40,012 nt of DNA, taken from contig JAZDMY010000043.1 of NCBI GenBank assembly GCA_043800435.1, positions 1-40,012 of the forward strand, given 5' to 3'. The notes under the pieces are model-generated. The model had not been told where the DNA came from and searched no databases. It was given only the letters and a program-made list of their open reading frames with translations. The stretch's first letter is position 1, and each line of letters opens with the position of its first letter. Below, in pieces: positions 27,981 through 39,894 of this stretch. The DNA comes from a bacterium. GTDB taxonomy: Bacteria > Patescibacteriota > Patescibacteriia > JAZDEU01. The translations under genes were made by a program, and so were the position numbers.

Positions 27981-29222
27981 ATGAATCTCAAAGAATCCGC
28001 AAAACTTGCTTTTGATTCTTTACTGGCGAATAAATTTCGCAGTTTTTTGACTATGCTCGGAATTGTTATCGGCGTTGGCTCAATTATAGTTATTATTTCA
28101 GTCGGCGCCGGCGCGCAAAGTTTAATTATAAACCAGATAAAAAGCGTCGGCTCAAATTTGGTGGGTATTTTACCCGGGTCAAGCGAAGAAGAAGGCCCTC
28201 CCGCTTCCGTTATGGGAATCGTCATAACTACTCTTAAATATGAAGACGCAAAGGCGATCTTGAAAAAAAATGATGTGCCGCACGCAGTGGCGGTTGAGGC
28301 AAACGTGCAGGGAATAGGCACGGCAACTTGCGGCAATCAAAGTTTTGATGCCACTTTCATAGGCACTACCGCCGACTATGTAAATGTTGAAGATGCGGAA
28401 ATAGAGCAGGGGAGATTTTTTACCGAACAGGAAGAACACGATTTATCAAGAGTAATAGTTTTGGGAAGCGGCGCAAAAGATGAGCTCTTTGGAAATACTG
28501 ATCCTATAAATGAGAAAGTGAAATTAAAAAAAGAGACATTCCGTGTAATCGGAATGCTCAAGGAAAGAGGATCTGCCGGATTTATCAACCAGGACGATTA
28601 TGTTTTTTTGCCTGTATATACCGCTCAAAAATTATTATTAGGGATTGACCATGTTAGTTTTATTCGCGTTAAGGTTGATGATGCCGAAAATATTGACAGC
28701 ACGAGAGAAGATTTAGAAGTCCTATTGCGCGAAAGGCATAACATTGAAAAAGATGAGCCGGTGGATTTTACCATTAGCAGCCAGGCGCAGGCATTAGAGG
28801 CGCTTACCACTATAACCGACGCCTTAAAATTTTTCCTAGCCGCCATTGCCGCGTTGTCTTTAGTAGTGGGAGGAATAGGCATTATGAATATAATGCTTAT
28901 ATCTGTTAGCGAAAGAACCCGCGAAATCGGACTTAGAAAAGCAATCGGGGCAAAATATAACCATATAATGAAGCAGTTTTTACTTGAGACCGTTATAATT
29001 TCCATACTTTCCGGTCTTATCGGCATTATTATCGGCGCCGTTATTTCCACATTAATTGCCGTTGTAGCGAGATATTTGGACTATGATTGGGATTTAGTTA
29101 TTTCCGTCTTTTCTATTGTTATAGCTGTAGGAGTATCAGGCGCGGTGGGACTCGTTTTCGGTATTTATCCCGCCCGCAAGGCCGCAAAACTTGATCCTAT
29201 TGAGGCGTTGAGATATGAGTAA
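27981..29222 (+). CDS. ABC transporter permease (MacB/FtsX family)
   Basis: N-terminal TM (FRSFLTMLGIVIGVGSIIVIISVG), a large periplasmic domain, and the C-terminal FtsX 3-TM bundle with ERTREIGLRKAIGA and YPARKAAKLDPIEALRYE. Confidence 0.85.
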   Translation: MNLKESAKLAFDSLLANKFRSFLTMLGIVIGVGSIIVIISVGAGAQSLIINQIKSVGSNLVGILPGSSEEEGPPASVMGIVITTLKYEDAKAILKKNDVPHAVAVEANVQGIGTATCGNQSFDATFIGTTADYVNVEDAEIEQGRFFTEQEEHDLSRVIVLGSGAKDELFGNTDPINEKVKLKKETFRVIGMLKERGSAGFINQDDYVFLPVYTAQKLLLGIDHVSFIRVKVDDAENIDSTREDLEVLLRERHNIEKDEPVDFTISSQAQALEALTTITDALKFFLAAIAALSLVVGGIGIMNIMLISVSERTREIGLRKAIGAKYNHIMKQFLLETVIISILSGLIGIIIGAVISTLIAVVARYLDYDWDLVISVFSIVIAVGVSGAVGLVFGIYPARKAAKLDPIEALRYE

Positions 29223-29224
29223 AA

Positions 29225-29704
29225 TTAATAAGATACTTTAAATATTTTATAAAATGGATCAGCAATTATTTCCTTATCTTCAAGTTTAAAATATAACCAT
29301 TGATGAATAAAAAAAGACATAAATAATCTTTTTTTTATAATAATTTCTTCTTCTTTAAATAATCCGGTATTAATTAAAATTGATTTAAATAATCTATTTT
29401 GATTATGACACCATAAAAATTGTTTTTTATCTAAAATATCAGTAGTAGAGAAATCACCAAAAAATAATATTGTCCTAAGATTTTTTATTTTAAATTTCTG
29501 GGTATCTCCTGAATAAGTATTAGTTATGTAATCATAAACATTTTTTATGGTATGAGTTTTATTAGAAGCTTTTAATTTAGCGGATAATTTTTTTAATTTA
29601 TCGTAATTTTCAACTTTGGACTTTTTAAAATAATTCGGGTATAGAAAGTATGGTAAAATTTTGCAGGTTATTAAGTAAAACGCAATTATGTATATAATTT
29701 GCAT
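29225..29704 (-). CDS. small membrane-anchored protein with transglutaminase-like Cys-His-Asp pattern
   Basis: LWCHNQNRLFKSILINTGL...FIHQWLYFKLEDKEIIADP matches the C...H-x-W...D spacing of transglutaminase-like cysteine peptidase cores. N-terminal TM present. Confidence 0.45.
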   Translation of the reverse strand: MQIIYIIAFYLITCKILPYFLYPNYFKKSKVENYDKLKKLSAKLKASNKTHTIKNVYDYITNTYSGDTQKFKIKNLRTILFFGDFSTTDILDKKQFLWCHNQNRLFKSILINTGLFKEEEIIIKKRLFMSFFIHQWLYFKLEDKEIIADPFYKIFKVSY

Positions 29705-29738
29705 AAATAATAGTTATTTTAAATTTTTTGGTATGCAG

Positions 29739-30926
29739 TTATAAATTTTTATATTCCATCGCTTTTTCAATGCCATCCCACCATCCATCAGAATTTGTAT
29801 CTTTATTTTTCGGATCAGTGGGGATGCAATCTGAAGTATAAGCATAAATCCCTTCGCATTTTTCTTCCTCATTGGAAATCCCATCGTGGTCAAGATCGGA
29901 GTCAGAACTAGACGAAGTATAAATTTTTAATAGTTTCCATTGGTCATTATTTTTTACAATATAAATTTTCGTATTTCCGCTTTCCATATTAGAGAATATG
30001 ATGCCTTGATTTTTATCCGCATAAATATCAGAATTATTATTTGTTATTTTATTTAAACTCTCTTTGCCTGAACCCATATTAAATATTTCCTGATTGCATT
30101 CTTCAATGCTTATATTAGGGAAAAGGGAAGCACATTCTTCCGCCGATAGATAAGATATTTCCGAAGAGTTATATACATATTTTTTTAGGTTATCCAAAGT
30201 AGTCCCATTTTTATTAATAATACCTTTATATTCGTCAAGGAATTCCCATATTAGTGTAGAATAATTATTGTTTATATCATATTCATTATGTAAAATTGTC
30301 GTTGAAGCAGGTATCTCTGTAAGATTTTTATTCGTTACGCCTAATCCTAATTTTCGCATCAAATTAAACGCGTCTTCAGGTCTGCCTAAAAAGTATCTTT
30401 TTGTGTCATCTGGGTTAATATACCATGCTTCCCCGTGGTTTTCTACTTGTAGTAATATTTTTCCAGCTTGAGTTTTTGCAAAATTTTTATCTATTTTAAT
30501 TGCGCCATTTCCATTCGGATTATAACTGTTTAATACTTCGGTTTTATCATCATATCCGTCATTATCTGTATCAGGATTATTTTTATCAGTACCTAAAGAA
30601 TCTTCAACCATATTAGAAAGCCCATCCTTATCAGAATCATTACCGCTCAAATTTTCAGAAGCTATTTGAATTTTATTAAGATCTGAATTACAAACTCCCG
30701 TGCTCAACTTTATCATTAGATTAAATGCGTCAGTCGGACTTCCTAAATAATAACGTTTATTATCTTTTGGGTTCACATACCAAGCTTCGCCATGACTTTC
30801 AACTTGCAGAATAATTTTGCCTTTTAATGCATTATCTATAGCGGCAAAAGACGTTCCTATTTTTATAAAACCGAATGTAATTAAAACTAAACATATGAAA
30901 CTAAGAAAAAGAATTTTTTTTTTCAT
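29739..30926 (-). CDS. secreted protein with an internally duplicated ~55-aa domain and Asp-rich Ca-binding-type repeats
   Basis: Signal peptide MKKKILFLSFICLVLITFGF. Duplicated domain: GKIILQVESHGEAWYVNPKDNKRYYLGSPTDAFNLMIKL and GKILLQVENHGEAWYINPDDTKRYFLGRPEDAFNLMRKL. Asp-rich repeats: DSDKDGLSN...DTDNDGYDD and DSDLDHDGISN...DTNSDGWWD. Confidence 0.65.
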   Translation of the reverse strand: MKKKILFLSFICLVLITFGFIKIGTSFAAIDNALKGKIILQVESHGEAWYVNPKDNKRYYLGSPTDAFNLMIKLSTGVCNSDLNKIQIASENLSGNDSDKDGLSNMVEDSLGTDKNNPDTDNDGYDDKTEVLNSYNPNGNGAIKIDKNFAKTQAGKILLQVENHGEAWYINPDDTKRYFLGRPEDAFNLMRKLGLGVTNKNLTEIPASTTILHNEYDINNNYSTLIWEFLDEYKGIINKNGTTLDNLKKYVYNSSEISYLSAEECASLFPNISIEECNQEIFNMGSGKESLNKITNNNSDIYADKNQGIIFSNMESGNTKIYIVKNNDQWKLLKIYTSSSSDSDLDHDGISNEEEKCEGIYAYTSDCIPTDPKNKDTNSDGWWDGIEKAMEYKNL

Positions 30927-30977
30927 ATAAATTTTTTAAGTTAGGAATAAAAGATTATAATATTGATTATAATATTG

Positions 30978-32427
30978 AGTATTCTCTAATCATAAGATGA
31001 TACCATAGTGGTAAGTGCTATTTTTTATAGATTTATGGTGTTTATATTCTCTCGGAATAGAAATTTTTTAAAATTAATTATTTTTGAGAAAATTTTTTAA
31101 ATAATATTGATTTTGCTTTTTGCATTTCCTTTGCAAATTCATTATCACTTTTTTCATTTGCTATCTCATCCATTTTTTCAAAACTAAAATTTTCTTTTAT
31201 ATATTTCTTTGCATCCGGTAATGATTTTAATTTCTCATAAGGCGTAACCCATTGATCATATTTTTTTCTAATTTTTCCTTTAGCGTCAATTTTATTGTCT
31301 GCATACCCGCAGGGTGATATACTAAATAAATATTTAAATACTCCTTATTGAATTTATTTATCTCTTTTGCAAACCTCCCATCGATATAATTCCTGCCGAA
31401 AATTTTTCTTATGATGCTTCCGTTTTTAGACTCCACTAATGCATTGTCATTTGAATGTCTTGATCGCGATTTTGTTAATTCAATATGAATTTTATTTAGC
31501 AACTGGGCGACCACCCTGTTGATGAACTCGCTCCCATTATCTGCATGAAATTCATAAATTGTAAAGGGAAATAATTCTAAGAGTTCTTCTATGACAGGTT
31601 TTAAAAATTGTTCCGTTATTTTTTCTACCGTGCCTATCATTTCATATTGCGTTATCTCATCCACTATATTTATGTGATAAACGCCCTTTTTGCCGTTAAA
31701 ATCGCCCTGATGGACGGTATCAACCCGCAAATACCCTGGCTTGCCATTCGGCTCAGGTTTTCTTCTTATACCGATATTTACCGGCGTGGCTTTTGTCCTT
31801 TTAAAAAATTTTGCTTCGCTGGTATTATATTGATTATTATTATTTCTGATATTGTAAATATGAGCCACTGATATATTTGAAATATTTCCGTAATTGATTT
31901 TTTTATACTTATTGTATTCTCTTTCTAAAATTTGTTTAGTCGCTTCTCCGCTTAAGCAGTCGTGCAGCGTATCCGTTTCAATCAGTAAAGATATGTCCGA
32001 TGGAAAATATTTTTTTGTAAACTTGTTTCTCTTTCTTGTTGGATTGTAAAATAATTTTCCCTTGCGCCATTTCTTGCGGCATCTTTTTAAATGGGATTTA
32101 GAATATCCTGTAAAAAATTTCAAATACATAAGGACAACATGTTTATCAGTTCTATCCAAATGATTATACTTCGTCCAATAAAGAGTGGTTTTGATAAAAT
32201 CATACTTATCCTTAGTAGTTTGTATTTCCAATTTCACACCCTCATCCATCGTGCCCTTTAAAAAATTTTTAATTTGGCTTATACTGCTTAATGGTAAGCG
32301 TTTCATAATGATCCTCATAAATCTATTATGAAAGCAATTACCATTTTTAGCAAGATGGGCCTTTTGGGGCTCATTTTGCGTTAGACTCAATATATCCTCA
32401 TGGTATCATCTTGCATTAGAGAAGACT
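30978..32427 (-). mobile_element. insertion sequence (1450 bp) with imperfect ~30-bp terminal inverted repeats and a 5-bp target-site duplication
   Basis: The left end is AGTATTCTCTAATCATAAGATGATACCAT (30978-31006). The reverse complement of the right end (32427 down to 32400) is AGTCTTCTCTAATGCAAGATGATACCAT. The element is flanked by TATTG at 30973-30977 and 32428-32432. Confidence 0.8.
31078..32390 (-). pseudogene. DDE (rve/integrase-core) transposase, frameshifted near the C-terminus
   Basis: DD(35)E triad: VDTVHQGD, FHADNGSEF and LVESKNG. The main frame ends at 31227. The conserved tail PCGYADNKIDAKGKIRKKYDQWVTPYEKLKSLP...LFKKFSQK is in the -1 frame (31313 down to 31078). The switch is at CACCCTGCGGG (about 31306-31316). 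The IS family is not assigned. Confidence 0.8.
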
Positions 32428-32563
32428 TATTGTTGCTTTTCTATTTAAAATAAGTTAAACTTAAAAGAAGTTCTTTTTTAGTATACTATAAAAAAGTAAC
32501 CTTGACAATAATCTGCACTGAAATGCCATTGCAATATAATGCTTACAATATTGAGTAGTTCTT

Positions 32564-32920
32564 ATGACCATAAGGCAAACAATAACAACCGCCTATAATT
32601 CACTGACAAAGCAAAAAATGCGAAGTTTTTTGACTATTTTAGCTGTGGCTGTCGGAATTGGCATAGTCATTATCGTTTTGTCCTCAGGCGCGGGAATGAA
32701 AGCATTTGTGACAAACCAATTGGACTCATTCGGCTCGGATTTAATGGAAATAGAAGTAAAAGTTCCGAGCACGAAACAGGCATCTGTCTCAAACGCCGCG
32801 GGGCAGGCGATGGGTATAACTATTACGACTTTAAAAGTTGATGATATGGATGCAATACTGAAATTACCAAATATCAAAAATGGTTATTCAATGTTAATGG
32901 GACAGGATTTGGCAAGTTAG
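32564..32920 (+). pseudogene. 5' fragment (117 codons) of a MacB/FtsX-type permease gene, paralogous to 38020-39267
   Basis: By my hand alignment, 100 of 117 residues are identical to the N-terminus of the 38020-39267 product. Nucleotide similarity fades near 32930. The fragment lacks the rest of the periplasmic domain and all FtsX TM helices. Confidence 0.8.
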
Positions 32921-32934
32921 TCTAAAATGAATAT

Positions 32935-33378
32935 ATGGAAAAAGACGCAAAAAAACTCGAAGCCGTATCAGCAGGCGGCATAATTATTCGCCATGCTGAT
33001 TCAGATATAGAACTGCTGCTTATCAGGGATAAACGATACACGGCATGGGTTGTCCCGAAAGGACATGTAGAATACGGCGAGACTCTTGAACAAGCGGCGC
33101 TTAGGGAAATCAAAGAAGAGGCCGGTGTTACGAAGGCTAAAATAATTAAAAAACTTGGACAGTTTCGCCGCTACGTTACATGCGCATCTGAGTGGAAAAC
33201 CATACACTACTTTCTTATGTACGCCGCTAAAGAGCAACCATTGGGACAGCCAGAAGACAACAAGATGGAAACAAAATGGTTCTCAGTCGTAAAATTGCCA
33301 GAGATGTATCTTCCTGAGCAAGAAAAGGTTATTAAAGAAAATCTGGAATCCATTCTTCAGATGAAAAAGATTTCGTAA
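32935..33378 (+). CDS. NUDIX hydrolase, NUDT2/Ap4A-hydrolase-like
   Basis: Contains AGGIIIR...ELLLI...WVVPKGHVEYGETLEQAALREIKEEAGV (Nudix box G-x5-E-x7-REIKEEAG). The PKGH(V)E context is what I recall for bis(5'-nucleosyl)-tetraphosphatase-type Nudix enzymes. Confidence 0.75.
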   Translation: MEKDAKKLEAVSAGGIIIRHADSDIELLLIRDKRYTAWVVPKGHVEYGETLEQAALREIKEEAGVTKAKIIKKLGQFRRYVTCASEWKTIHYFLMYAAKEQPLGQPEDNKMETKWFSVVKLPEMYLPEQEKVIKENLESILQMKKIS

Positions 33379-33443
33379 TAGATGAGAAACATCTATCTAA
33401 ATGGGGTAATAAAAATCAATTTAAAAGAGTATTGTATTTCGCT

Positions 33444-33487
33444 ATAAAAAAAGTGGCTATTCGCAGGAAATAATCATATAGCCACTT
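33444..33487 (-). terminator. intrinsic terminator of the minus-strand PRT-kinase-NTase operon
   Basis: AAGTGGCTAT (33451-33460) pairs with ATAGCCACTT (33478-33487). On the minus-strand transcript the hairpin is followed by a U-run (plus-strand A7 at 33444-33450). Confidence 0.55.
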
Positions 33488-33564
33488 AAAAAGATTTCAA
33501 AAAATGAACAAAAAGACATCAGGAAGACAGGGTGATATTGGTATAGATATTATCCTTTGTTCGG

Positions 33565-34485
33565 CTATTCCATGATGTGATGGCGCAGCTTTACGAGGAT
33601 GAGATTTTTTTTGCTAACCTTGTCGGCATTTACCTCTACGATCGTTCCCGCATTAGTCATTGCTTTATGCAGCCAATGATATGACCAGAGATGATACTGG
33701 GTACCATCAACAGCCTCCAAACAATACTTGCGAGGAAAGCTCCATGAAAAGTTACTAGAGATAATCCTTGCGCGTAGCGTTACCTCGCCAATTGCTGGCC
33801 GTTGATAAAGACATTTCGGAATTTGATGTTGCTCGTTCTCGTTATAAGTAAAGATAAACGAGATTTTATATCCTTCTACGTAAAGTTTAGTCAAATCGCG
33901 CGCAAAGAGGGGAAATAAATGATCAAATGGCAAATTGTAGAGTTTGCCATATCTTTGCGCATACCCGCTAGCCAATTCCGATGACATTAGCTGGGCATCG
34001 TCTGACAATAACGCACTCCTGAGTACTCTTAAACACGGCGCTATGTGCCGGACACCATAGATAAGAATGTCCAAATCAGATTCAGTTGTTTGGCACCCCA
34101 GTGAAAATGACCCACCGAGACCAATATGATTAAAAGGAATATGCGCATCGCGGAGTATTTTCAATAGAACACCCTTTCTGGGATCAGACCCTTTGAGCCA
34201 ACTTTTAAAAGCATGCGCCACATCTATCTGCTCTACAATTTCAGATATGGGGACACGAGCCGCCCAAAGATGCAAATGTTTTTCAGGAGGATAAGGCTGA
34301 TTCCACGGATTGGAACCCTGTTTATGGGCTAAGTATTTTTGATAAGGAAGCCCGCGAAATTTCCGATCACCCCCCTCATAAGGGAAGTACATGGGATAAG
34401 CAGTCACTTCGTGGATGGATAGGCTGGGAGCAATAGTTATGTATACCCAACCTGAACGAGTCAATACTGGATTCAATAATCGCAT
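33565..34485 (-). CDS. Pol-beta-superfamily nucleotidyltransferase with unassigned N- and C-terminal (OB-like?) regions
   Basis: GLGGSFSLGCQTTESDLDILIYG fits hG[GS]-x9-13-Dh[DE]h. I place the start at ATG 34485 (MRLLNPVL...), 7 nt after the upstream gene's TGA, with GAGG spanning that stop. The ORF track starts it at 34560. Confidence 0.65.
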   Translation of the reverse strand: MRLLNPVLTRSGWVYITIAPSLSIHEVTAYPMYFPYEGGDRKFRGLPYQKYLAHKQGSNPWNQPYPPEKHLHLWAARVPISEIVEQIDVAHAFKSWLKGSDPRKGVLLKILRDAHIPFNHIGLGGSFSLGCQTTESDLDILIYGVRHIAPCLRVLRSALLSDDAQLMSSELASGYAQRYGKLYNLPFDHLFPLFARDLTKLYVEGYKISFIFTYNENEQHQIPKCLYQRPAIGEVTLRARIISSNFSWSFPRKYCLEAVDGTQYHLWSYHWLHKAMTNAGTIVEVNADKVSKKNLILVKLRHHIME

Positions 34486-34492
34486 GTTAGCC

Positions 34493-35470
34493 TCAAGCTT
34501 CATGTTTAGAAACTTCATCAAGTATAAAATCCACCATGGATTCAACTGAGGATGTTCCATCGTTAATAACTATAACATGTGCTAATAGCACCAATGACCC
34601 GATGTTATTAGCCTCGTAGCCTGTCCATTCGCCTCCGCGATGAGCATCAAGTTCAATCAGTCGGTTTTCTGACGCTTGCGCCTCTATTAGCCTACCTCTC
34701 CATCGCGCACGCTCATGACGTAAACGATTAGGGACTGAGATGTACACAAGTAATGGATTACCGATCCGATAAAGCTCGGCTATTTCAGATAAACGAAGTA
34801 AATTTCCAACAAAGAATCGTTGGGGTATATTTACATCCCATCCACGGAATTGAAAACCCAAACGTAAGGGTTCGGTTTCCCATTTAGACGGGTGTGGGAG
34901 AGCAGACAGAAGAGGGGAATTGGTTGAACGCATTTCGTCAAGACATGTATAAACTTCGTGCACATGTTCGCCACGACGAAGTAACTCCTGAATCAGATAG
35001 GATTTCCCGGATCCTTTAAGTCCAATTATTCCTACCGGTGTAAAACCGTTTTTGATTATTGTAAATTGTGGTAAATGTCCGTAAAACACCCGTCGCATCC
35101 GTCCGTTAATTGCGACAGATATTCGGTTAGCGTCAGGAATCAACTGACTAATGGGTATCCCAAGCAGTCCGGACAGGTACGCCATAACCGATGATGAATA
35201 AATGATCGTTTGATCCTGTAAAGCAACTCGAATCGAATCTAAAATAGCAGGACTGGGGACAGGTTCTGTCCATCTTTCCAATCCGTCATCGCCATATATC
35301 GAACGAAGTCGTTCAATAATTCGGGTATAGGTTTCACTATCCCGATACAACTCAGCGTCAGCCAGTAGTAAGCTGATAATTGCCAACTCGTGTTTCTTTT
35401 GGAAAATCCCAAGGTCAGCTCTTTGCAGAATCTTCTCTACGAATCGCCCAAGCGTTGTTTTGGAAAACAT
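34493..35470 (-). CDS. P-loop kinase-like protein (dNMP/dephospho-CoA-kinase-like C-terminal half) with unknown ~145-aa N-terminal domain
   Basis: Walker A IIGLKGSGKSYL. The tail ...LLAHVIVINDGTSSVESMVDFIL resembles small nucleotide kinases. I place the start at ATG 35470 (MFSKTTLGRF...) behind GAGGAG. The ORF track starts it at 35578. Confidence 0.6.
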   Translation of the reverse strand: MFSKTTLGRFVEKILQRADLGIFQKKHELAIISLLLADAELYRDSETYTRIIERLRSIYGDDGLERWTEPVPSPAILDSIRVALQDQTIIYSSSVMAYLSGLLGIPISQLIPDANRISVAINGRMRRVFYGHLPQFTIIKNGFTPVGIIGLKGSGKSYLIQELLRRGEHVHEVYTCLDEMRSTNSPLLSALPHPSKWETEPLRLGFQFRGWDVNIPQRFFVGNLLRLSEIAELYRIGNPLLVYISVPNRLRHERARWRGRLIEAQASENRLIELDAHRGGEWTGYEANNIGSLVLLAHVIVINDGTSSVESMVDFILDEVSKHEA

Positions 35471-36104
35471 ATGTCTCCTCCAAATATGTTTGAATGGCGT
35501 GGGTTCCAAAGCGAACAAGTTGATTGAGAATTGCTTGTCGCTCACTGTCTGGCAGATGCAGATCAGGAAGTAAATCACGGATGCGAAATAATGAAAATAA
35601 CTTGAGGTTCATATCATCCTTGAGAGTTTCAATAATTGCATCTCCTGCGGGACTAACTTCTTCCCTGTCAAAGAAACGAATGACCGCGGTTGGTTGTACT
35701 CCGGCATTGTAAAGTGTTTGATGAGCCCATTTGATGGTTTTTCCTGTCGTAACGGCATTATCTGCAATGATTGCAGTACGAACATCAGGAGTCGCAAAAA
35801 TTGGTTGCACATCACTGTAAGGATTCAATGTCGCAATACTTACGCCATGCATCACTCGAGACAAACCATTGAAGACCGCTTGGGCAATCGGAAGACCGCT
35901 CCGAGCAATACCAAACACGCATGGAGCGGACCATGTATCCCATGGTAGTATCTCAACCGCGCGATCAGCCAACATGATCAGCACATCATCAGTGATGGTA
36001 GTCGGGAACTTCACAGAGTATGGAGATGGTCTACCCCCCTTCAGGGTTGTCTGACTAAACATGTATGCTCCGCACTGACTAAGCTTCTGAACTATATTTA
36101 TCAT
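35415..36104 (-). CDS. type I phosphoribosyltransferase, orotate-PRT (PyrE)-like but with altered catalytic motifs
   Basis: GAYMFSQTTLKGGRPSPYS (compare PyrE FGEFTLKSGRKSPYF, from memory) and PRPP loop AIIADNAVTTGKT. The C-terminal region is collinear with PyrE. I place the start at ATG 36104 behind AAGGTGG; the ORF track starts it at 36131. Confidence 0.7.
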   Translation of the reverse strand: MINIVQKLSQCGAYMFSQTTLKGGRPSPYSVKFPTTITDDVLIMLADRAVEILPWDTWSAPCVFGIARSGLPIAQAVFNGLSRVMHGVSIATLNPYSDVQPIFATPDVRTAIIADNAVTTGKTIKWAHQTLYNAGVQPTAVIRFFDREEVSPAGDAIIETLKDDMNLKLFSLFRIRDLLPDLHLPDSERQAILNQLVRFGTHAIQTYLEETYVFQNNAWAIRREDSAKS

Positions 36105-36286
36105 TATTAACCACCTTTCAGTTATTTCCAATAGACTTGTTGCGCATTAATTCACTTGGCTAATTTTAGTAAAACGATTAAGTATTTTTATTTATTTTTT
36201 AGCTAAAATTAGATAAAAAATGAAATTTTTACAAAAATTAGTGTTTTATTCCGCAGCAAGGCTAATGAATATTTTCAATGAGCATA

Positions 36287-36315
36287 GTGACATCTTAGAA
36301 TGAATGTGCTATATT
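36287..36315 (+). promoter_or_regulatory. sigma70-like promoter candidate for the HD-MBL pair
   Basis: GTGACA (36287-36292), a 17-nt spacer, then TATATT (36310-36315). The predicted start site would fall at or next to ATG 36323, giving a possibly leaderless mRNA. Confidence 0.3.
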
Positions 36316-36874
36316 GTCAATTATGATAAGAGGCAAGCAGTTAAATGAATTATTTAATAAAATGACGCCTGCACAAAAAAATTTTTGTGCAATGGTTATC
36401 AAGGAAAATGCGTCAAAATTTTACAGTGCTCCCGGTGGTCTTTATAAACATCAAAACTGGGAAGGCGGCTATCATGATCACGTGGTTGAAACCATGGCAA
36501 TTGCAACGTTACTATACCAAGGGCTCTCTCAATATAGGCCACTTCCATTTACGCTTGCGGAATCCCTATATCTTATCTTTATCCATGATCTGGAAAAAAT
36601 GTTTATCTTAACGATTTCTAAAAATGGTAAGCCAATAAAAATTCAAACTGAAATAAAAGGGCAATCTTCATTTGAGAAAACAATGGAAATGCTCGATAAG
36701 TACCATCTTAAACTATCCAAAAAACATGTTAACGCGCTTAAATACTGTCATGGGGAAAATGAAGATTATCACCCGACTAAAAAGATAATGAACCCACTGG
36801 CAGCATTTATTCATTGCTGTGACACTATTAGCGCACGAATCTGGTATCAATATCCTAAGCATAAACGTAGTTAA
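36314..36874 (+). CDS. HD-domain metal-dependent phosphohydrolase
   Basis: Pattern APGGLYKHQNWEGGYHDHVVETM ... IFIHDLEK ... HG ... CCDTISAR (H...HD...D). The true start may be ATG 36323 rather than TTG 36314. Confidence 0.7.
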   Translation: MSIMIRGKQLNELFNKMTPAQKNFCAMVIKENASKFYSAPGGLYKHQNWEGGYHDHVVETMAIATLLYQGLSQYRPLPFTLAESLYLIFIHDLEKMFILTISKNGKPIKIQTEIKGQSSFEKTMEMLDKYHLKLSKKHVNALKYCHGENEDYHPTKKIMNPLAAFIHCCDTISARIWYQYPKHKRS

Positions 36875-36929
36875 TATACCATTATAAACATGGTTCAATA
36901 AAATACCGTTCTTTAAAAATGGAGGAAAT

Positions 36930-37607
36930 ATGAAAATTACAAAATACGCACAGTCATGCTTTTTGTTTGAGTACCAACAGGGAACGACCGTTCTGGTTGA
37001 TCTTGGTAAGTACAGTACGATCGGGGGCGACCTGCCGAATCGACTGGCAATGCCAACATTGTTCATAGTAACACATGGGCACGAAGATCATTATTATCCT
37101 GACATCATTCGGGCTGTATTGCCGTTTAAGCATGACATCGTCATTCATACTAACGAGATATTGGCTGCTCAAATAGCCCAAGATGGTTTTAAACCGGTCC
37201 CAGTCACTATTGGAACAAAGTTTATATCCAGTGAGCTGCAAGTAATGCCGCTCCGAACCGATCACGTAGTATGGGACAAAGTCGTACCAAATTTTGGCTT
37301 CTTGATTCATTCCACTGAATTAATCCTATATTATGCCAGCGACACTCGATATATAGAGCCGGATATACTCAATCTAGGATGTGAAATTGATTTGTTGATT
37401 ATTCCAATCAGTAATCGTGGACTCGTCATGGGTATGGATGATGTAATTATGTTTGCATCTAAAATCCACCCTAAAGTCGTTATTCCGATGCATTACGATA
37501 GCCCAAAAGATAAGGGCAGAGTTAATCCTAATTGTTTTGCAACGTTGGCTAGAAAGGCTGGGCTAAATGTCAAAGTAATTAAAAACGGAAAAACCGCAAT
37601 TTTCTAA
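36930..37607 (+). CDS. metallo-beta-lactamase-fold hydrolase (small UlaG/YtkL-like type)
   Basis: VTHGHEDHYYPD (HxHxDH), a downstream D/H ligand (ASDTRY) and PMHYD. GGAGG lies 6 nt upstream of the ATG. Confidence 0.8.
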   Translation: MKITKYAQSCFLFEYQQGTTVLVDLGKYSTIGGDLPNRLAMPTLFIVTHGHEDHYYPDIIRAVLPFKHDIVIHTNEILAAQIAQDGFKPVPVTIGTKFISSELQVMPLRTDHVVWDKVVPNFGFLIHSTELILYYASDTRYIEPDILNLGCEIDLLIIPISNRGLVMGMDDVIMFASKIHPKVVIPMHYDSPKDKGRVNPNCFATLARKAGLNVKVIKNGKTAIF

Positions 37608-37797
37608 ATCAGGGGCGTAACACTTTTGTCACGCCTTTGCCAATATATATCTTTTTTAATAATTCCATAGGTGAATGAGAAAATCCTCCCTTGAAAATTT
37701 TTCGGCAACCTATATTTAAGGCTGGGGTGTGTCGCATAGTTTTTTACGACATACTCCAAGCCGTTTTTAATTTTTGCGCAAAAAACTATAATGGGCG

Positions 37798-37930
37798 TGT
37801 CGCCGAATGCCAATTTGTGTCATTCTGAGCGACGGAGGAGCGAATAATCCCAGAGTTTTTTCTCTTAACCACAGGATACTTCATTCGTCTTAGGCTTGTT
37901 CAGGATGACGCTTTTGGGTATTCGGCGACA
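37798..37930. repeat. MITE-like long imperfect palindrome (GTCATTCTGAGC ... GTTCAGGATGAC family)
   Basis: The left arm is TGTCGCCGAATGCCAATTTGTGTCATTCTGAGC. The reverse complement of the right arm is TGTCGCCGAATACCCAAAAGCGTCATCCTGAAC, about 25 of 33 matches by hand. The core is related to 39282-39392 in opposite orientation. Confidence 0.65.
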
Positions 37931-38019
37931 GTCCTCGTATAAAAATTACTTGGTGTTTTTTAGTGGTCATATTTATTGTATTTTAGGTGATTATGTGTTA
38001 AATTTATTATATCAAATAT

Positions 38020-39267
38020 ATGACTTTAGCGCAAACCATCACAACCTCATATAATTCATTAACGAAGCAAAAAATGAGAAGTTTTTTGACTATTTTAGCT
38101 GTAGCTGTAGGAATAGGCATTGTTATTATTGTTCTGTCTTCGGGCGCGGGGATGGAAAAATTTATTTCAAATCAATTAGATTCTTTTGGCACGGATTTAA
38201 TTGAAGTGGAAGTAAAAGTTCCGAGCACGAAACAGGCATCTGTCGCGAACGCTGCCGGCCAGGCAATGGGCATAACAATTACTACATTAAAGTCTGATGA
38301 TATGGATGCCGTGATGAAATTGCCTAATATTAAAAATGGATATTCAATGGTCATGGGGCAGGATTTAGTAAATTATCAAAATGAGAGCAAAAAAGTTATG
38401 CTTATGGGCGTGAGCCCGCAGGCATCGATCGTTGATAAGGCGACAAAGCTTGCCGAAGGAGATTTTATTACTGAAGAAGATGACAAAGGACTCGCGCAGG
38501 CAGCGGTGTTAGGTTTTAAAGTTAAAGAGAAACTTTTTGGCGATGATGATGCAATCGGGAAATATATAAAAATAAAAAGAAAAAATTTTCGTGTGAGCGG
38601 TGTATTAGAAAAAAGAGGGGCGATGATGGGAATGGATTTTGATAATTTAATTTATGTTCCATTAAAAACATTGCAAAAAAAAATATTGGGCATTGAACAC
38701 GTAAGCGCCATATTTATGCAAGTTGCCGATATGGATTTAGTTAATGCGACTAAAGAGGATATAGAAATTTTGCTTAGAGAGAGGCATAATATCAGCGATC
38801 CAACGAAAGACGATTTCGCAGTTATGTCTATGCTTGAGGCAAAGGAAATGATGGATAAAGTTTTCGGCGGAATTACTTTATTGCTTTTGGCGCTTGCGGC
38901 GATTTCTCTTGTTGTCGGCGGCGTGGGAATTATGAATATTATGTATGTAAGCGTTGTGGAACGCACTTATGAAATAGGACTAAGGAAAGCATTAGGTGCT
39001 AAAAATAATGATATTATGAGGCAATTTTTATTTGAGGCGCTGCTTCTTACTTTAACAGGCGGAATAGTCGGAATCTTAGGCGGGCTTTCTCTTACATTTT
39101 TAGTCTCCGTAATCGCTAAAATGAAAAATTTTGACCTGCCTTTTGTAATATCCTTTAATTCATTATTAGTCGGCGTCGGTTTCTCAGGTCTTATGGGGCT
39201 ATTCTTTGGCATTTACCCTGCGAAAAAGGCGGCAACGCTTGATCCGATAGTGGCATTGACTAAATAG
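38020..39267 (+). CDS. ABC transporter permease (MacB/FtsX family), full length
   Basis: Same architecture as 27981-29222: N-terminal TM, periplasmic domain, ERTYEIGLRKALGA, and C-terminal TMs ending YPAKKAATLDPIVALTK. Confidence 0.85.
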   Translation: MTLAQTITTSYNSLTKQKMRSFLTILAVAVGIGIVIIVLSSGAGMEKFISNQLDSFGTDLIEVEVKVPSTKQASVANAAGQAMGITITTLKSDDMDAVMKLPNIKNGYSMVMGQDLVNYQNESKKVMLMGVSPQASIVDKATKLAEGDFITEEDDKGLAQAAVLGFKVKEKLFGDDDAIGKYIKIKRKNFRVSGVLEKRGAMMGMDFDNLIYVPLKTLQKKILGIEHVSAIFMQVADMDLVNATKEDIEILLRERHNISDPTKDDFAVMSMLEAKEMMDKVFGGITLLLLALAAISLVVGGVGIMNIMYVSVVERTYEIGLRKALGAKNNDIMRQFLFEALLLTLTGGIVGILGGLSLTFLVSVIAKMKNFDLPFVISFNSLLVGVGFSGLMGLFFGIYPAKKAATLDPIVALTK

Positions 39268-39281
39268 TATAATGTCCACAT

Positions 39282-39392
39282 CGTCATCCTGAACGACCAC
39301 GCATCCAGTGCGGGGGAGTGAAGGATCCCGTGGTTAAGCAGAAAAACTCTGGGATTCTTCGCCCTCCTGGCGCTCGGGCTCAGAATGACGCG
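39282..39392. repeat. second copy (inverted) of the GTCATYCTGA... palindromic element
   Basis: Its reverse complement shares several blocks with 37817-37912: GTCATTCTGAGC, GCGAA(T/G)AATCCCAGAGTTTTT, CTTAACCAC(A/G)GGAT(A/C)CTTCA and GTTCAGGATGAC. Confidence 0.65.
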
Positions 39393-39480: not shown

Positions 39481-39894
39481 TTATTTTACTATATTTTTTA
39501 AGATAAGATCAGGCAAAATTTTATTCTTAATTATCGGTGAAAGTCGAGGATGAGACAAGTCATCCTTGCCAATCCAATGAAACTTAATTATTTCAGCAGA
39601 TGGTTTGGGCTCGCCAATAATATTACCTTCGTATAGCTTTATAGAAACATCTTTTGTTAAATCGCCTGCCGCAACATCAACATACTCGTTTATATATCGA
39701 AGACTTGTCTCATCCAACTTTACAGCAAGTTCTTCATTTATTTCTTCGACAAGGCATTCAATATCACTTTCGCCTTCATTTAACTGACCACCCGGCATTA
39801 TAAAATCAGAAGTGAAGTTATCCTTCTCACACACTAAAAATTTTGTCTGATCGTCGTTGAGTAATAACAAACCGATTTTATTGAAATAAGCCAT
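39481..39894 (-). CDS. NUDIX-domain protein (degenerate Nudix box)
   Basis: GGQLNEGESDIECLVEEINEELAV matches G-x5-E-x7-(R)E-x2-EE-x-G except at the R position. 137 aa. Confidence 0.65.
   Translation of the reverse strand: MAYFNKIGLLLLNDDQTKFLVCEKDNFTSDFIMPGGQLNEGESDIECLVEEINEELAVKLDETSLRYINEYVDVAAGDLTKDVSIKLYEGNIIGEPKPSAEIIKFHWIGKDDLSHPRLSPIIKNKILPDLILKNIVK

What the first reader, a model, noticed from the sequence alone, without database searches (positions are those of the whole stretch)
32930..37607. Foreign-composition island of six nucleotide-acting enzymes that matches no system I know
A block lies between a truncated (32564-32920) and a full-length (38020-39267) copy of one ABC-permease gene. 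Its genes differ visibly from the rest of the window in three ways.
1. Base composition. Hand counts of five 60-nt lines inside it gave 42-53 % G+C. Most lines I counted in the AT-rich neighbours gave 17-37 %, although some native genes reach the 40s locally.
2. Protein composition. The products are poor in K/N/I and rich in R/H/W/P.
3. Translation signals. Four genes carry Shine-Dalgarno motifs and two end in TGA. I see neither in native genes here.

The block encodes only nucleotide-chemistry folds:
- NUDT2-like Nudix (32935-33378).
- Pol-beta NTase (33565-34485, minus strand).
- P-loop kinase-like protein (34493-35470, minus strand).
- PyrE-like PRT (35415-36104, minus strand).
- HD hydrolase (36314-36874).
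- MBL hydrolase (36930-37607).

No recombinase, phage structural gene or transporter lies inside. Inference: this is a horizontally acquired cassette that makes, senses or destroys a nucleotide-derived molecule. It could be an anti-phage defence or signalling module, a non-canonical nucleotide pathway, or a salvage cassette for an auxotrophic host.
Basis: partly seen in the sequence, partly recalled or inferred. Interest (0 to 1): 0.85.

Follow-up and report, generated by a model that had tools for sequence, protein, structure and literature searches.

The report
Mobile nucleotide-metabolite gene cassette, function unknown
A 4.7-kb block of foreign DNA carries a rare, conserved set of nucleotide-handling genes (three likely builders, two or three likely breakers). 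It recurs as a unit in unrelated uncultured bacteria, matches no described system, and probably makes and destroys a dinucleotide-type small molecule.

Summary
Window 32935-37638 is compositionally foreign: its tetranucleotide distance to the rest of the window is 0.368, against 0.144±0.018 for native segments. It has Shine-Dalgarno sites on 4 of 6 genes, against 1-2 of 31 native genes. It starts 5 nt after the end of a truncated MacB paralogue.

It is a real unit. PRT→kinase→NTase with a convergent Nudix gene recurs in all 11 independent contigs that hold enough sequence, each with different neighbours. An HD-like gene is present in 8, the MBL gene in 3, and a HIT gene takes the HD position in one. 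All six genes are under purifying selection (dN/dS 0.13-0.26).

The families are very rare: 7-9 protein clusters among 5.8 billion. They are absent from viral contigs and hit no known defence model.

- PRT: an OPRT relative that lacks the OPRT catalytic loop.
- Kinase: NMP/nucleoside-kinase fold plus a novel helical domain.
- NTase: pol-β type.
- Nudix: NUDT2/Ap4A-hydrolase type.

Best reading (inferred, about 0.35): base + PRPP → mononucleotide → phosphorylated → joined to a second nucleotide, with dedicated hydrolases for turnover. This matches the logic of NadV/NadR/NadM NAD salvage, built from different folds. Defence, RNA repair and plain pyrimidine salvage are weaker rivals.

The parts
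32935..33378 (+). Nudix hydrolase of the NUDT2/Ap4A-hydrolase type. It is convergent to the NTase and is a core gene, present in every locus.
   Evidence: Pfam NUDIX 3.4e-20. The Nudix box is complete: GHVEYGETLEQAALREIKEEAGV. Best PDB matches are Ndx1 (Ap6A hydrolase, 4e-13) and Aquifex Ap4A hydrolase (7e-11). It is 45-86% identical across 11 loci.
33565..34485 (-). Pol-beta-type nucleotidyltransferase (306 aa) with extra beta-rich N- and C-terminal domains. Core gene, last in the synthesis operon.
   Evidence: GGS...DLD motif invariant. Pfam NTP_transf_2 scores 0.0079, below cut-off, but distant relatives pass. PDB profile hits are MntA, Trf4-type poly(A) polymerase and KNTase at E 0.004-0.01. 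The model has pLDDT 67 and gives only weak Foldseek hits. There are 7 homologues in 5.8 billion proteins and 288 representatives at E<1e-3 in a profile search.
34493..35470 (-). P-loop kinase (325 aa). Residues ~1-135 form a novel helical domain. Residues ~140-325 have the NMP/nucleoside-kinase fold. Core gene.
   Evidence: Walker A GLKGSGKS; LID-like RHERARxRGRxIE. Model pLDDT 89. Foldseek PDB matches include adenylate kinase 5, SSO1041, dephospho-CoA kinase and UMP/CMP kinase, at E 1e-5 to 1e-4. Pfam AAA_18 hits 10/10 members, AAA_33 8/10, AAA_28 4/10 and dNK 3/10. Only 9 homologues were found.
35415..36104 (-). OPRT-family type I phosphoribosyltransferase-like protein (229 aa). It is the first gene of the synthesis operon and overlaps the kinase gene by 56 nt.
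   Evidence: The family profile matches yeast and bacterial OPRT structures over the full length (2.8e-20). It scores TIGR00336 6.5e-13 but 48.8 bits, below the 106.8 cut-off. The ribose-5-P loop VDNAVTTG is invariant. OPRT Lys73 and the KEAKDHGEGG loop are absent.
36314..36874 (+). HD-like hydrolase (probable start ATG 36323), divergent from the PRT gene. Present in 8 of 11 loci.
   Evidence: Conserved motifs GGYxDH, FHDLEK, HGENxDYH and HCCDTISAR. Pfam HD is only marginal (2 of 8 members, E 0.076). No PDB sequence match.
36930..37607 (+). Metallo-beta-lactamase-fold hydrolase of the UPF0173 type. Accessory gene, present in 3 loci.
   Evidence: Pfam Lactamase_B_3 6.7e-20. PDB matches are Igni_1254 (4.8e-11) and TM1162 (5e-8). 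Homologues occur in L006 and L007 only.
37608..37638 (+). Hairpin after the MBL gene, marking the right-hand end of the acquired block.
   Evidence: GGCGTAACAC...GTCACGCC followed by T-rich sequence. DNA homology to L007 stops at 37638.
36133..36269 (.). AT-rich ~137-nt insertion in the divergent HD/PRT control region. It holds palindromes at 36160-36221.
   Evidence: Absent from the 82%-identical L007, whose spacer is 53 nt. Inverted repeats I6/I7.
32564..32920 (+). Truncated MacB-type permease paralogue (118 codons). Left border of the insertion.
   Evidence: 86% aa and 82% nt identical to 38020-38375. Homology ends at 32930, 5 nt before the Nudix ATG. No C-terminal remnant exists elsewhere in the window.
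31227..32390 (-). rve/IS481-like transposase next to the insertion site. It is not part of the conserved cassette.
   Evidence: Pfam rve 4.6e-6; NCBIfam IS481 8e-13, below cut-off.

Best explanation
The block is a horizontally transferred, self-contained module for one nucleotide-derived small molecule. It has a synthesis arm and a turnover arm.

**Synthesis arm.** One operon of overlapping or abutting genes (PRT→kinase→NTase).
1. An orotate-PRT-family enzyme joins a heteroaromatic base, probably pyrimidine- or orotate-like, to ribose-5-phosphate and gives a 5'-mononucleotide.
2. An NMP/nucleoside-kinase-fold P-loop kinase adds phosphate. It either converts the mononucleotide to the diphosphate or salvages the riboside.
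3. A pol-beta nucleotidyltransferase transfers an NMP from an NTP onto that phosphate. The product is a pyrophosphate-linked dinucleotide or dinucleoside polyphosphate (an 'NDP-X' compound).

**Turnover arm.** These genes are transcribed separately. A NUDT2/Ap4A-hydrolase-type Nudix is always present. It is joined by interchangeable HD-like, HIT or MBL hydrolases that cleave the product or its intermediates.

**Analogy.** The logic is that of NAD salvage: NadV PRT, NadR kinase plus NTase, NadM NTase plus Nudix. Here it is built from non-homologous PRT and NTase folds.

**Role.** I favour salvage or homeostasis of an accessory cofactor- or alarmone-like dinucleotide over immunity.

**Shown:** the unit is real, conserved, foreign to this genome and under purifying selection, and the fold assignments hold.

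**Inferred:** every catalytic step, the substrate and the product.
For: **The unit is real.**
- PRT-kinase-NTase plus a convergent Nudix occurs in 11 of 11 loci with enough sequence, always in the same order and with different flanks.
- Identities of the genes to the window rank the loci in roughly the same order, so they appear to be inherited together.
- dN/dS is 0.13-0.26 for all six genes.
- The PRT and kinase genes overlap by 35-56 nt in every locus checked.

**The unit is foreign to this genome.** The tetranucleotide and dinucleotide signature and the SD usage are outliers. In other hosts the cluster GC (0.39-0.52) lies above AT-rich flanks and below GC-rich flanks.

**Chemistry.**
- PRT is an OPRT-family protein with an invariant ribose-5-P loop and the conserved Arg of the OPRT 'DRxE' motif.
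- The kinase domain matches adenylate, UMP/CMP and dephospho-CoA kinases. Weaker matches are dNK and the NadR-type AAA_28 family.
- The NTase has the GS/DxD catalytic motif.
- The Nudix is closest to Ap4A/Ap6A hydrolases.
- Nudix, HD (YqeK) and HIT (FHIT, Apa2) are all superfamilies with known dinucleoside-polyphosphate hydrolases (PMC10148737). HIT replaces HD in L014.
- The PRT + P-loop kinase + NTase + Nudix logic is that of NadV/NadR/NadM (PMC9503650).
Against: - No enzymatic data exist, and no substrate can be named.
- The PRT lacks OPRT Lys73 and the catalytic Lys-rich loop that bind pyrophosphate. It may not be a conventional PRT. It could be a nucleotide-binding or glycosidase-type protein.
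- The NTase model is poor (pLDDT 67, C-terminal third below 50). Its best structural matches (terminal uridylyltransferase, poly(A) polymerase, E about 0.06) are RNA-tailing enzymes, though the weak hits also include ANT(2'') and KNTase, which act on small molecules.
- The beta-rich extra domains could bind nucleic acid.
- Two or three hydrolases are more than a simple salvage route needs.
- The families are extremely rare, which argues against a general cofactor pathway.
- HD assignment is at motif level only.
Confidence: 0.35

Rival explanations
1. It is an anti-phage or other conflict system. The synthesis arm makes a nucleotide signal or a toxic nucleotide analogue on infection. The hydrolases give self-immunity or reset the signal.
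For: Distribution is rare, patchy and mobile, and the composition is foreign. The block sits next to a transposase here, next to T4SS genes in L005 and next to a tRNA in L001. Synthesis and hydrolysis genes are in separate transcription units. The MBL gives a faint Apyc1-type Pfam flag.
Against: PADLOC gives only a generic Nudix hit and a non-significant NTase hit. There is no sensor or effector gene, such as a nuclease, TIR, membrane protein or protease, in any locus. Neighbours in other loci show no recurrent defence genes, only generic RecD/PIF1 helicase matches. No copies occur in 2.9 million viral contigs.
Confidence: 0.2
2. It is an RNA-end modification or repair set. The NTase tails or caps an RNA or tRNA. 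The kinase acts as a polynucleotide kinase. The Nudix decaps. HD and MBL act as 2',3'-phosphoesterases or nucleases.
For: The best NTase matches, though weak, are RNA nucleotidyltransferases: TUT4, poly(A) polymerase, Trf4 and MntA. OB-like beta domains are suggested (PAN N-domain hits, probability 0.2-0.4). NUDT2/RppH-type Nudix enzymes also act on RNA 5' ends (PMC10148737). HD and MBL folds are common in RNA processing (established knowledge).
Against: It gives the always-present, translationally coupled PRT no role. The kinase matches small-molecule NMP, CoA and nucleoside kinases, not polynucleotide kinases. All NTase structure matches are above E 0.05 on a low-confidence model.
Confidence: 0.12
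3. It is ordinary pyrimidine salvage: a divergent PyrE/UPRT plus a UMP/CMP kinase, with housekeeping Nudix, HD and MBL hydrolases that happen to lie nearby in a nucleotide-auxotrophic host.
For: The PRT is clearly of the OPRT family. The kinase resembles UMP/CMP and adenylate kinases. Organisms with reduced genomes depend on salvage (established knowledge).
Against: The PRT is below the PyrE cut-off and lacks the catalytic loop. The families have only 4-9 protein clusters in 5.8 billion, far too few for a housekeeping route. Linkage to the NTase and Nudix is invariant. No pyr genes are nearby in any locus. The block is foreign to this genome.
Confidence: 0.08
4. It is an assembly chimera: the block belongs to another organism in the sample and was joined in by mis-assembly.
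For: Composition and translation signals change sharply at both borders. Reads could not be inspected.
Against: Both flanks are MacB paralogues of the same array (86% aa identical). A chimera would have had to leave and re-enter the same locus. The left junction truncates a gene cleanly 5 nt before the Nudix ATG. The control region of the block carries an AT-rich insertion (36133-36269) that is absent from the closest relative, L007. Even if the contig were chimeric, the cassette itself is validated by other assemblies.
Confidence: 0.03

Closest known systems
NAD+ salvage set NadV / NadR / NadM (bacteria and phages)
   Same: It has the same four-part logic (PMC9503650). A phosphoribosyltransferase makes a mononucleotide from base + PRPP. 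A P-loop kinase salvages the riboside. A nucleotidyltransferase joins it to AMP. A linked Nudix cleaves the dinucleotide. Four of ten kinase family members weakly hit the NadR-type AAA_28 family.
   Different: NadV is a type II TIM-barrel PRT, whereas this PRT is a type I OPRT relative. NadR and NadM use a HIGH-motif Rossmann NTase, whereas this NTase is pol-beta type. There are no gene fusions here. Extra HD, HIT or MBL hydrolases are present. The substrate is unknown. This is analogy, not homology.
Orotate phosphoribosyltransferase (PyrE / Ura5)
   Same: The profile match to OPRT structures runs the full length (2.8e-20). The N-terminal 'GRxSPY' motif, the ribose-5-P loop, the 'DRxE' Arg and the C-terminal helix are shared.
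   Different: It scores 48.8 bits against the 106.8 equivalog cut-off. The flexible catalytic loop and Lys73 are missing. The second acidic residue of the PRPP loop is an invariant Asn. It is never in a pyr operon.
Dinucleoside-polyphosphate (Ap4A/Ap3A) turnover enzymes: NUDT2/RppH (Nudix), YqeK (HD), FHIT/Apa2 (HIT)
   Same: The Nudix is closest to Ap4A/Ap6A hydrolases. The accessory hydrolases of the cluster come from two further superfamilies that hold ApnA hydrolases, HD and HIT.
   Different: ApnA is normally a by-product of aminoacyl-tRNA synthetases and has no dedicated synthesis operon. The HD-like protein shows no detectable sequence similarity to YqeK structures. No activity has been tested.
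Tubercidin/toyocamycin-type nucleoside pathways (PRT TubE + Nudix TubG)
   Same: A PRT builds an unusual nucleotide from PRPP and a Nudix trims phosphates (from my own knowledge, not tested here).
   Different: Those clusters also hold the base-synthesis genes (GTP cyclohydrolase, QueD/QueE-like) and a reductase. None is present here. They have no pol-beta NTase.
MNT/HEPN and other minimal PF01909 nucleotidyltransferases
   Same: The catalytic core motif is shared, and the best PDB sequence hit is MntA (E 0.0037).
   Different: The protein is about 300 aa with extra N- and C-terminal beta-rich domains. It has no HEPN partner. It belongs to an uncharacterised family of about 288 representatives that includes DPANN archaea.

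Membership tests
Orotate phosphoribosyltransferase (PyrE equivalog) | Score above the curated TIGR00336 cut-off | tested here: not met
   48.8 bits against a cut-off of 106.8
Orotate phosphoribosyltransferase (PyrE equivalog) | Flexible catalytic loop (KEAKDHGEGG-type, with the catalytic Lys) and Lys73 | tested here: not met
   The loop is shortened and not conserved, and Ser replaces Lys73 in the alignment to 4wml
Orotate phosphoribosyltransferase (PyrE equivalog) | Context in pyrimidine biosynthesis (pyr genes nearby) | tested here: not met
   No pyr gene in any of 11 loci
Type I phosphoribosyltransferase superfamily | PRPP/ribose-5-phosphate binding loop (hhhhD[DE]hhTTG.T) and PRT fold | tested here: met
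   Invariant VDNAVTTGxT, with Asn in place of the second acid. The profile matches OPRT structures at 2.8e-20. Pfam PF00156 is itself below cut-off for the window protein (21.6 against 26.3)
Pol-beta nucleotidyltransferase superfamily (PF01909) | hG[GS] motif followed by DxD catalytic carboxylates | tested here: met
   G125-S126, D137 and D139 are invariant in 24 sequences. Relatives pass the PF01909 cut-off. The window protein is below it (17 against 21 bits)
Pol-beta nucleotidyltransferase superfamily (PF01909) | Third catalytic carboxylate on a later strand | tested here: inconclusive
   D197 is conserved in the close family but not in all distant members. The model is too poor to place it
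NMP / nucleoside P-loop kinase fold | Walker A, Arg-rich LID and a structural match to NMP kinases | tested here: met
   GLKGSGKS and RHERARxRGR. Foldseek probability 1.00 to adenylate, UMP/CMP and dephospho-CoA kinases, TM(target) 0.6-0.7
Nudix, NUDT2/Ap4A-hydrolase subfamily | Complete Nudix box GX5EX7REUXEEXGU, with closest relatives being ApnA hydrolases | tested here: met
   Box complete and conserved. Top PDB hits are Ndx1, Aquifex and C. elegans Ap4A hydrolases, and NUDT2
Nudix, NUDT2/Ap4A-hydrolase subfamily | Hydrolysis of dinucleoside polyphosphates | not testable with these tools
   Needs an enzyme assay
HD phosphohydrolase superfamily | H...HD...D metal-binding motif and a match to PF01966 | tested here: inconclusive
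   Motifs DH, HD(LEK), H and D(TISAR) are conserved. Pfam HD matches only 2 of 8 members at E 0.076. No PDB hit
UPF0173 metallo-beta-lactamase-fold hydrolases | Match to Lactamase_B_3 and to solved UPF0173 proteins | tested here: met
   72.1 bits against a cut-off of 24. Igni_1254 4.8e-11. The equivalog PRK00685 is not reached (56.9 against 144)
NadV/NadR/NadM NAD salvage | Type II (TIM-barrel) nicotinamide PRT and a HIGH-motif adenylyltransferase | tested here: not met
   The PRT is type I, OPRT-like. The NTase is pol-beta type. This is a resemblance of logic only
Known anti-phage defence systems (PADLOC-DB v2) | Significant match of the component proteins to a system's models | tested here: not met
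   Only a generic Nudix hit (PDC-S07, 2.4e-7) and an NTase hit at 0.017. Nothing for kinase, PRT, HD or MBL
Genomic island acquired by horizontal transfer | Atypical composition, sharp borders, and presence in unrelated genomic contexts | tested here: met
Genomic island acquired by horizontal transfer | Own integrase or recombinase and flanking direct repeats | tested here: not met
   No recombinase lies inside. The flanking MacB segments are only 82% identical. A transposase lies outside at 31227-32390

The most novel reading that the evidence does not exclude
The cassette encodes a complete, portable pathway for a previously unknown pyrophosphate-linked dinucleotide or dinucleoside polyphosphate that carries a non-canonical base. 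That product would be a new cofactor or alarmone. It would be made by a type I PRT, an NMP-type kinase and a pol-beta NTase, a non-homologous reinvention of the NAD-salvage logic. Its level would be set by dedicated Nudix, HD, HIT or MBL hydrolases.
Probability: 0.25. Interest if true: 0.8.

Novelty: new variant of a known kind. Interest (0 to 1): 0.58.

Why it matters
If the inferred chemistry is right, this would be a compact, transferable route to a new nucleotide metabolite in uncultured bacteria.

- Three of its protein families have no curated model: the NTase family, the N-terminal domain of the kinase, and the HD-like protein.
- It would be an independent evolutionary solution to the base → mononucleotide → dinucleotide problem that NAD salvage solves with other folds.
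- It would be the first dedicated synthesis operon for a dinucleoside-polyphosphate-like compound.
- The cassette is only 4.7 kb with six intact genes, so it can be tested directly by synthesis and expression.

Even if the role proves mundane, the result gives a clean example of recent gene transfer between hosts of very different base composition and translation-initiation style.

Tried and rejected
- **Rfam and tRNA scan of the window.** No RNA feature lies in or beside the block.
- **PADLOC on the six proteins and on ten neighbours in other loci.** No defence system was found.
- **IMG/VR scans with the NTase and kinase alignments.** No viral copies.
- **Foldseek of the NTase model against PDB and BFVD.** Nothing better than E 0.06, and the model is too weak in its C-terminal third.
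- **PDB sequence and profile searches for the HD-like protein and the kinase N-terminal domain.** No informative match.
- **Exact flanking repeats or att sites around the block.** None. The MacB segments are 82% identical paralogues.
- **Contexts of distant NTase relatives (L015, L018, L019).** No PRT, kinase or Nudix is nearby, so they do not inform the function of the cassette.
- **A broad NTase alignment (A7) for the genome scan.** It was too divergent for the tool, so the closer alignment A1 was used.
- **(p)ppGpp-type synthetase reading of the NTase.** Considered because of a weak SpoT Foldseek hit, and rejected because the motifs are those of PF01909, not RelA/SpoT.
- **HEPN reading of the kinase N-terminal domain.** Considered and rejected because there is no conserved Rx4-6H motif.
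- **Host taxonomy.** It could not be established. The records are labelled only 'bacterium', and one is labelled 'Gammaproteobacteria'.

Full report
**What the window is.** The window is a whole 40,012-bp contig of an uncultured 'bacterium' MAG (locus tags V1860_…). It is AT-rich, with GC 0.27-0.41 in 1-kb windows. It encodes ordinary bacterial genes: an AddA-type helicase-nuclease, a cysteine desulfurase, a subtilase, sugar-nucleotide enzymes, and an ABC ATPase with MacB-type permeases.

**Checking the observation.**
- GC: the block has GC 0.407 against 0.339 for the rest. PRT, kinase and NTase (0.436-0.451) are the richest genes in the window. GC3 overlaps the top native genes, so GC alone is only a moderate signal.
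- Genome signature: this is decisive. Tetranucleotide distance to the rest of the window is 0.368, against 0.144±0.018 (maximum 0.190) for 55 native 4.7-kb segments. Dinucleotide delta* is 0.171, against 0.046±0.019.
- Amino-acid bias: low K/N/I and high R/H/W/P is real for the three core genes.
- Translation signals: SD-like motifs precede four of six block genes but only one or two of 31 native genes. Two block genes end in TGA, and so does one native ORF.
- Flanking 'copies': these are paralogues. The 118-codon fragment at 32564-32920 is 82% nt and 86% aa identical to the start of 38020-39267. A third MacB lies at 27981-29222, and no C-terminal remnant exists.
- Nearby recombinase: an rve/IS481-like transposase lies just upstream at 31227-32390.

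**The block is a conserved unit.** The kinase has only 9 homologous protein clusters, the NTase 7 and the PRT 4, among 5.8 billion. I fetched their contigs, two GTDB genomes and one groundwater metagenome contig. Presence and absence were scored by tblastn.
- Core: PRT→kinase→NTase with a convergent Nudix occurs in all 11 independent loci that hold enough sequence.
- HD-like gene: present in 8 loci. It lies upstream and divergent in six, and downstream of the Nudix in L011 and L012.
- MBL gene: present in 3 loci (window, L006, L007).
- HIT gene: occupies the HD position in L014.
- Flanks: they differ everywhere. Examples are tRNA-His with a PIF1 helicase, T4SS genes, NHL-repeat proteins, a 7TM-GAF histidine kinase, and FabH.
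- Co-inheritance: identities of the genes to the window rank the loci in roughly the same order.
- Closest relative: L007 is 82-85% DNA-identical to the window exactly over 32935-37638. That fixes the borders of the block, 5 nt after the MacB homology ends and just past the MBL hairpin.
- Selection: dN/dS between the two copies is 0.13-0.26 for all six genes.
- Cluster GC: it is 0.39-0.52. It lies above AT-rich flanks and below GC-rich flanks, as expected for a unit moving between hosts.
- Absences: no copy is in IMG/VR.

**What the proteins are.**
- PRT: the family profile matches orotate PRT structures over their full length (2.8e-20). It keeps the GRxSPY motif, an invariant VDNAVTTG ribose-5-phosphate loop and the DRxE arginine. 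It lacks Lys73 and the flexible Lys-rich catalytic loop, and it is far below the PyrE cut-off.
- Kinase: the model is confident (pLDDT 89). Residues ~140-325 match adenylate, UMP/CMP and dephospho-CoA kinases (Foldseek probability 1.0, E about 1e-5). The LID resembles that of deoxynucleoside kinases. Weak Pfam hits are AAA_18, AAA_33, AAA_28 and dNK. The first ~135 residues form a helical domain with no match.
- NTase: it has the invariant GS…DxD pol-beta motif. It belongs to an uncharacterised family of about 288 representatives that reaches DPANN archaea. Its distant members pass PF01909 but lack PRT, kinase or Nudix neighbours. The model is weak (pLDDT 67) and has no significant structural neighbour.
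- Nudix: it has a complete Nudix box and is closest to Ap6A/Ap4A hydrolases and NUDT2.
- HD-like protein: it has H…HD…H…D motifs but only marginal Pfam support.
- MBL: it is of the UPF0173 type.

**How it most likely works.** The three co-directional genes overlap or abut: PRT and kinase overlap by 35-56 nt in every locus, and kinase and NTase are 7 nt apart here. This suggests a coupled synthesis arm. The hydrolases are transcribed separately.

The simplest chemistry that uses all the parts has three steps. Base + PRPP gives a mononucleotide (PRT). The kinase phosphorylates it, or salvages the riboside. The NTase transfers an NMP onto the phosphate and gives a pyrophosphate-linked dinucleotide or dinucleoside polyphosphate. 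That is the substrate class of Nudix enzymes in general, and of the NUDT2 subfamily in particular.

Two points support this reading. First, Nudix, HD (YqeK) and HIT (FHIT, Apa2) are all superfamilies known to degrade Ap3A/Ap4A (PMC10148737). Second, the four-part logic equals that of NadV/NadR/NadM NAD salvage (PMC9503650), although the PRT and NTase folds differ. All catalytic steps are inferred. I give this model about 0.35.

**Rivals.**
- Defence or conflict role (0.2): it fits the rarity and mobility. It lacks any effector, any PADLOC match, any recurrent defence neighbour and any viral copy.
- RNA-end modification (0.12): it fits the weak NTase matches to RNA nucleotidyltransferases. It leaves the PRT unexplained and conflicts with the small-molecule kinase fold.
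- Plain pyrimidine salvage (0.08): the rarity, the missing OPRT loop and the invariant link to the NTase and Nudix argue against it.
- Assembly chimera (0.03): it is unlikely because both flanks belong to the same MacB array, and the control region of the block has a local AT-rich insertion. Reads were not available.

**Novelty and verdict.** I found no described system with this gene set in PADLOC, NCBIfam, Pfam or two literature searches. It is best filed as a new variant of a known kind: a nucleotide salvage, synthesis and turnover cassette built from different folds. The substrate is unknown. It is a well-delimited, experimentally tractable lead rather than a demonstrated new biology. Interest: 0.58.

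Noticed in passing
window 29225-32920: The stretch between MacB1 (27981-29222) and the block is itself a patchwork. It holds two very AT-rich ORFs on the minus strand (GC 0.20 and 0.31; the 395-aa one has two internal repeats and no Pfam hit). It also holds an rve/IS481-like transposase and the truncated MacB2. The macB array looks like an insertion hot spot.
   Followed up: partly
window 36133-36269: A ~137-nt AT-rich insertion lies in the divergent HD/PRT intergenic region. It is absent from the 82%-identical L007, whose spacer is 53 nt. It carries palindromes at 36160-36221 and is bracketed by TTATTTCCAAT / ATATTTTCAAT. It could be a MITE-like element or a locally acquired promoter or operator.
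   Followed up: partly
window 36300-36325; L007 1598-1625: A conserved TGTGCTATATTGTCAA (extended -10-like) abuts the conserved ATG of the HD-like gene (36323) in both copies. This suggests a leaderless or very short-leader mRNA. The TTG start at 36314 is probably not used.
   Followed up: no
window 37827-37886 and 39316-39375: 60-nt inverted repeats (83% complementary) bracket the full-length MacB gene. A second imperfect inverted repeat lies at 37787-37941. Their nature is unknown.
   Followed up: no
L007 1-16 and 4707-4722: The 4722-bp contig that carries only the six genes begins and ends with the same 16 nt (GCATTCGAACCTAATA). The other strand resembles a tRNA T-arm (GGTTCGAATGC). This may be a circular form or flanking repeats. 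The overlap is shorter than a k=31 assembler would leave for a circle.
   Followed up: partly
window, all native genes: Native genes almost entirely lack Shine-Dalgarno motifs, so the host uses SD-independent initiation. The acquired genes keep SD sites.
   Followed up: partly
window 33565-34485 and 35415-36104: The public annotation starts the NTase at residue 32 (275 aa) and the PRT about 30 residues late (199 aa). Conserved N-termini in all homologues support the longer forms (306 and 229 aa).
   Followed up: yes
window 39481-39894 (-): A second Nudix gene lies just beyond MacB3. It is only 20% identical to the cassette Nudix and has native composition. It is unrelated to the cassette.
   Followed up: yes
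L015 3874-6292 (Micrarchaeota MAG JBDRNY010000023); L018; L019: Distant members of the NTase family (about 288 representatives, 300-350 aa, no curated family) occur in DPANN archaea and elsewhere. They lie next to SAM methyltransferases, a RimK-type ATP-grasp gene, or HD/CysRS genes. This is an uncharacterised NTase family in its own right.
   Followed up: partly
L001 12512-12586; L005 4832-7932: In other hosts the cassette lies next to a tRNA-His gene (L001) or next to VirB4/TraC/PrgI-type conjugation genes and a ComF-like PRT (L005). This is consistent with mobility.
   Followed up: no
L013 1-2402: One JGI contig carries the same NTase as L014, but the kinase is split into two ORFs and the Nudix is split by a frameshift. 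The copy is either decaying or affected by sequencing errors.
   Followed up: no
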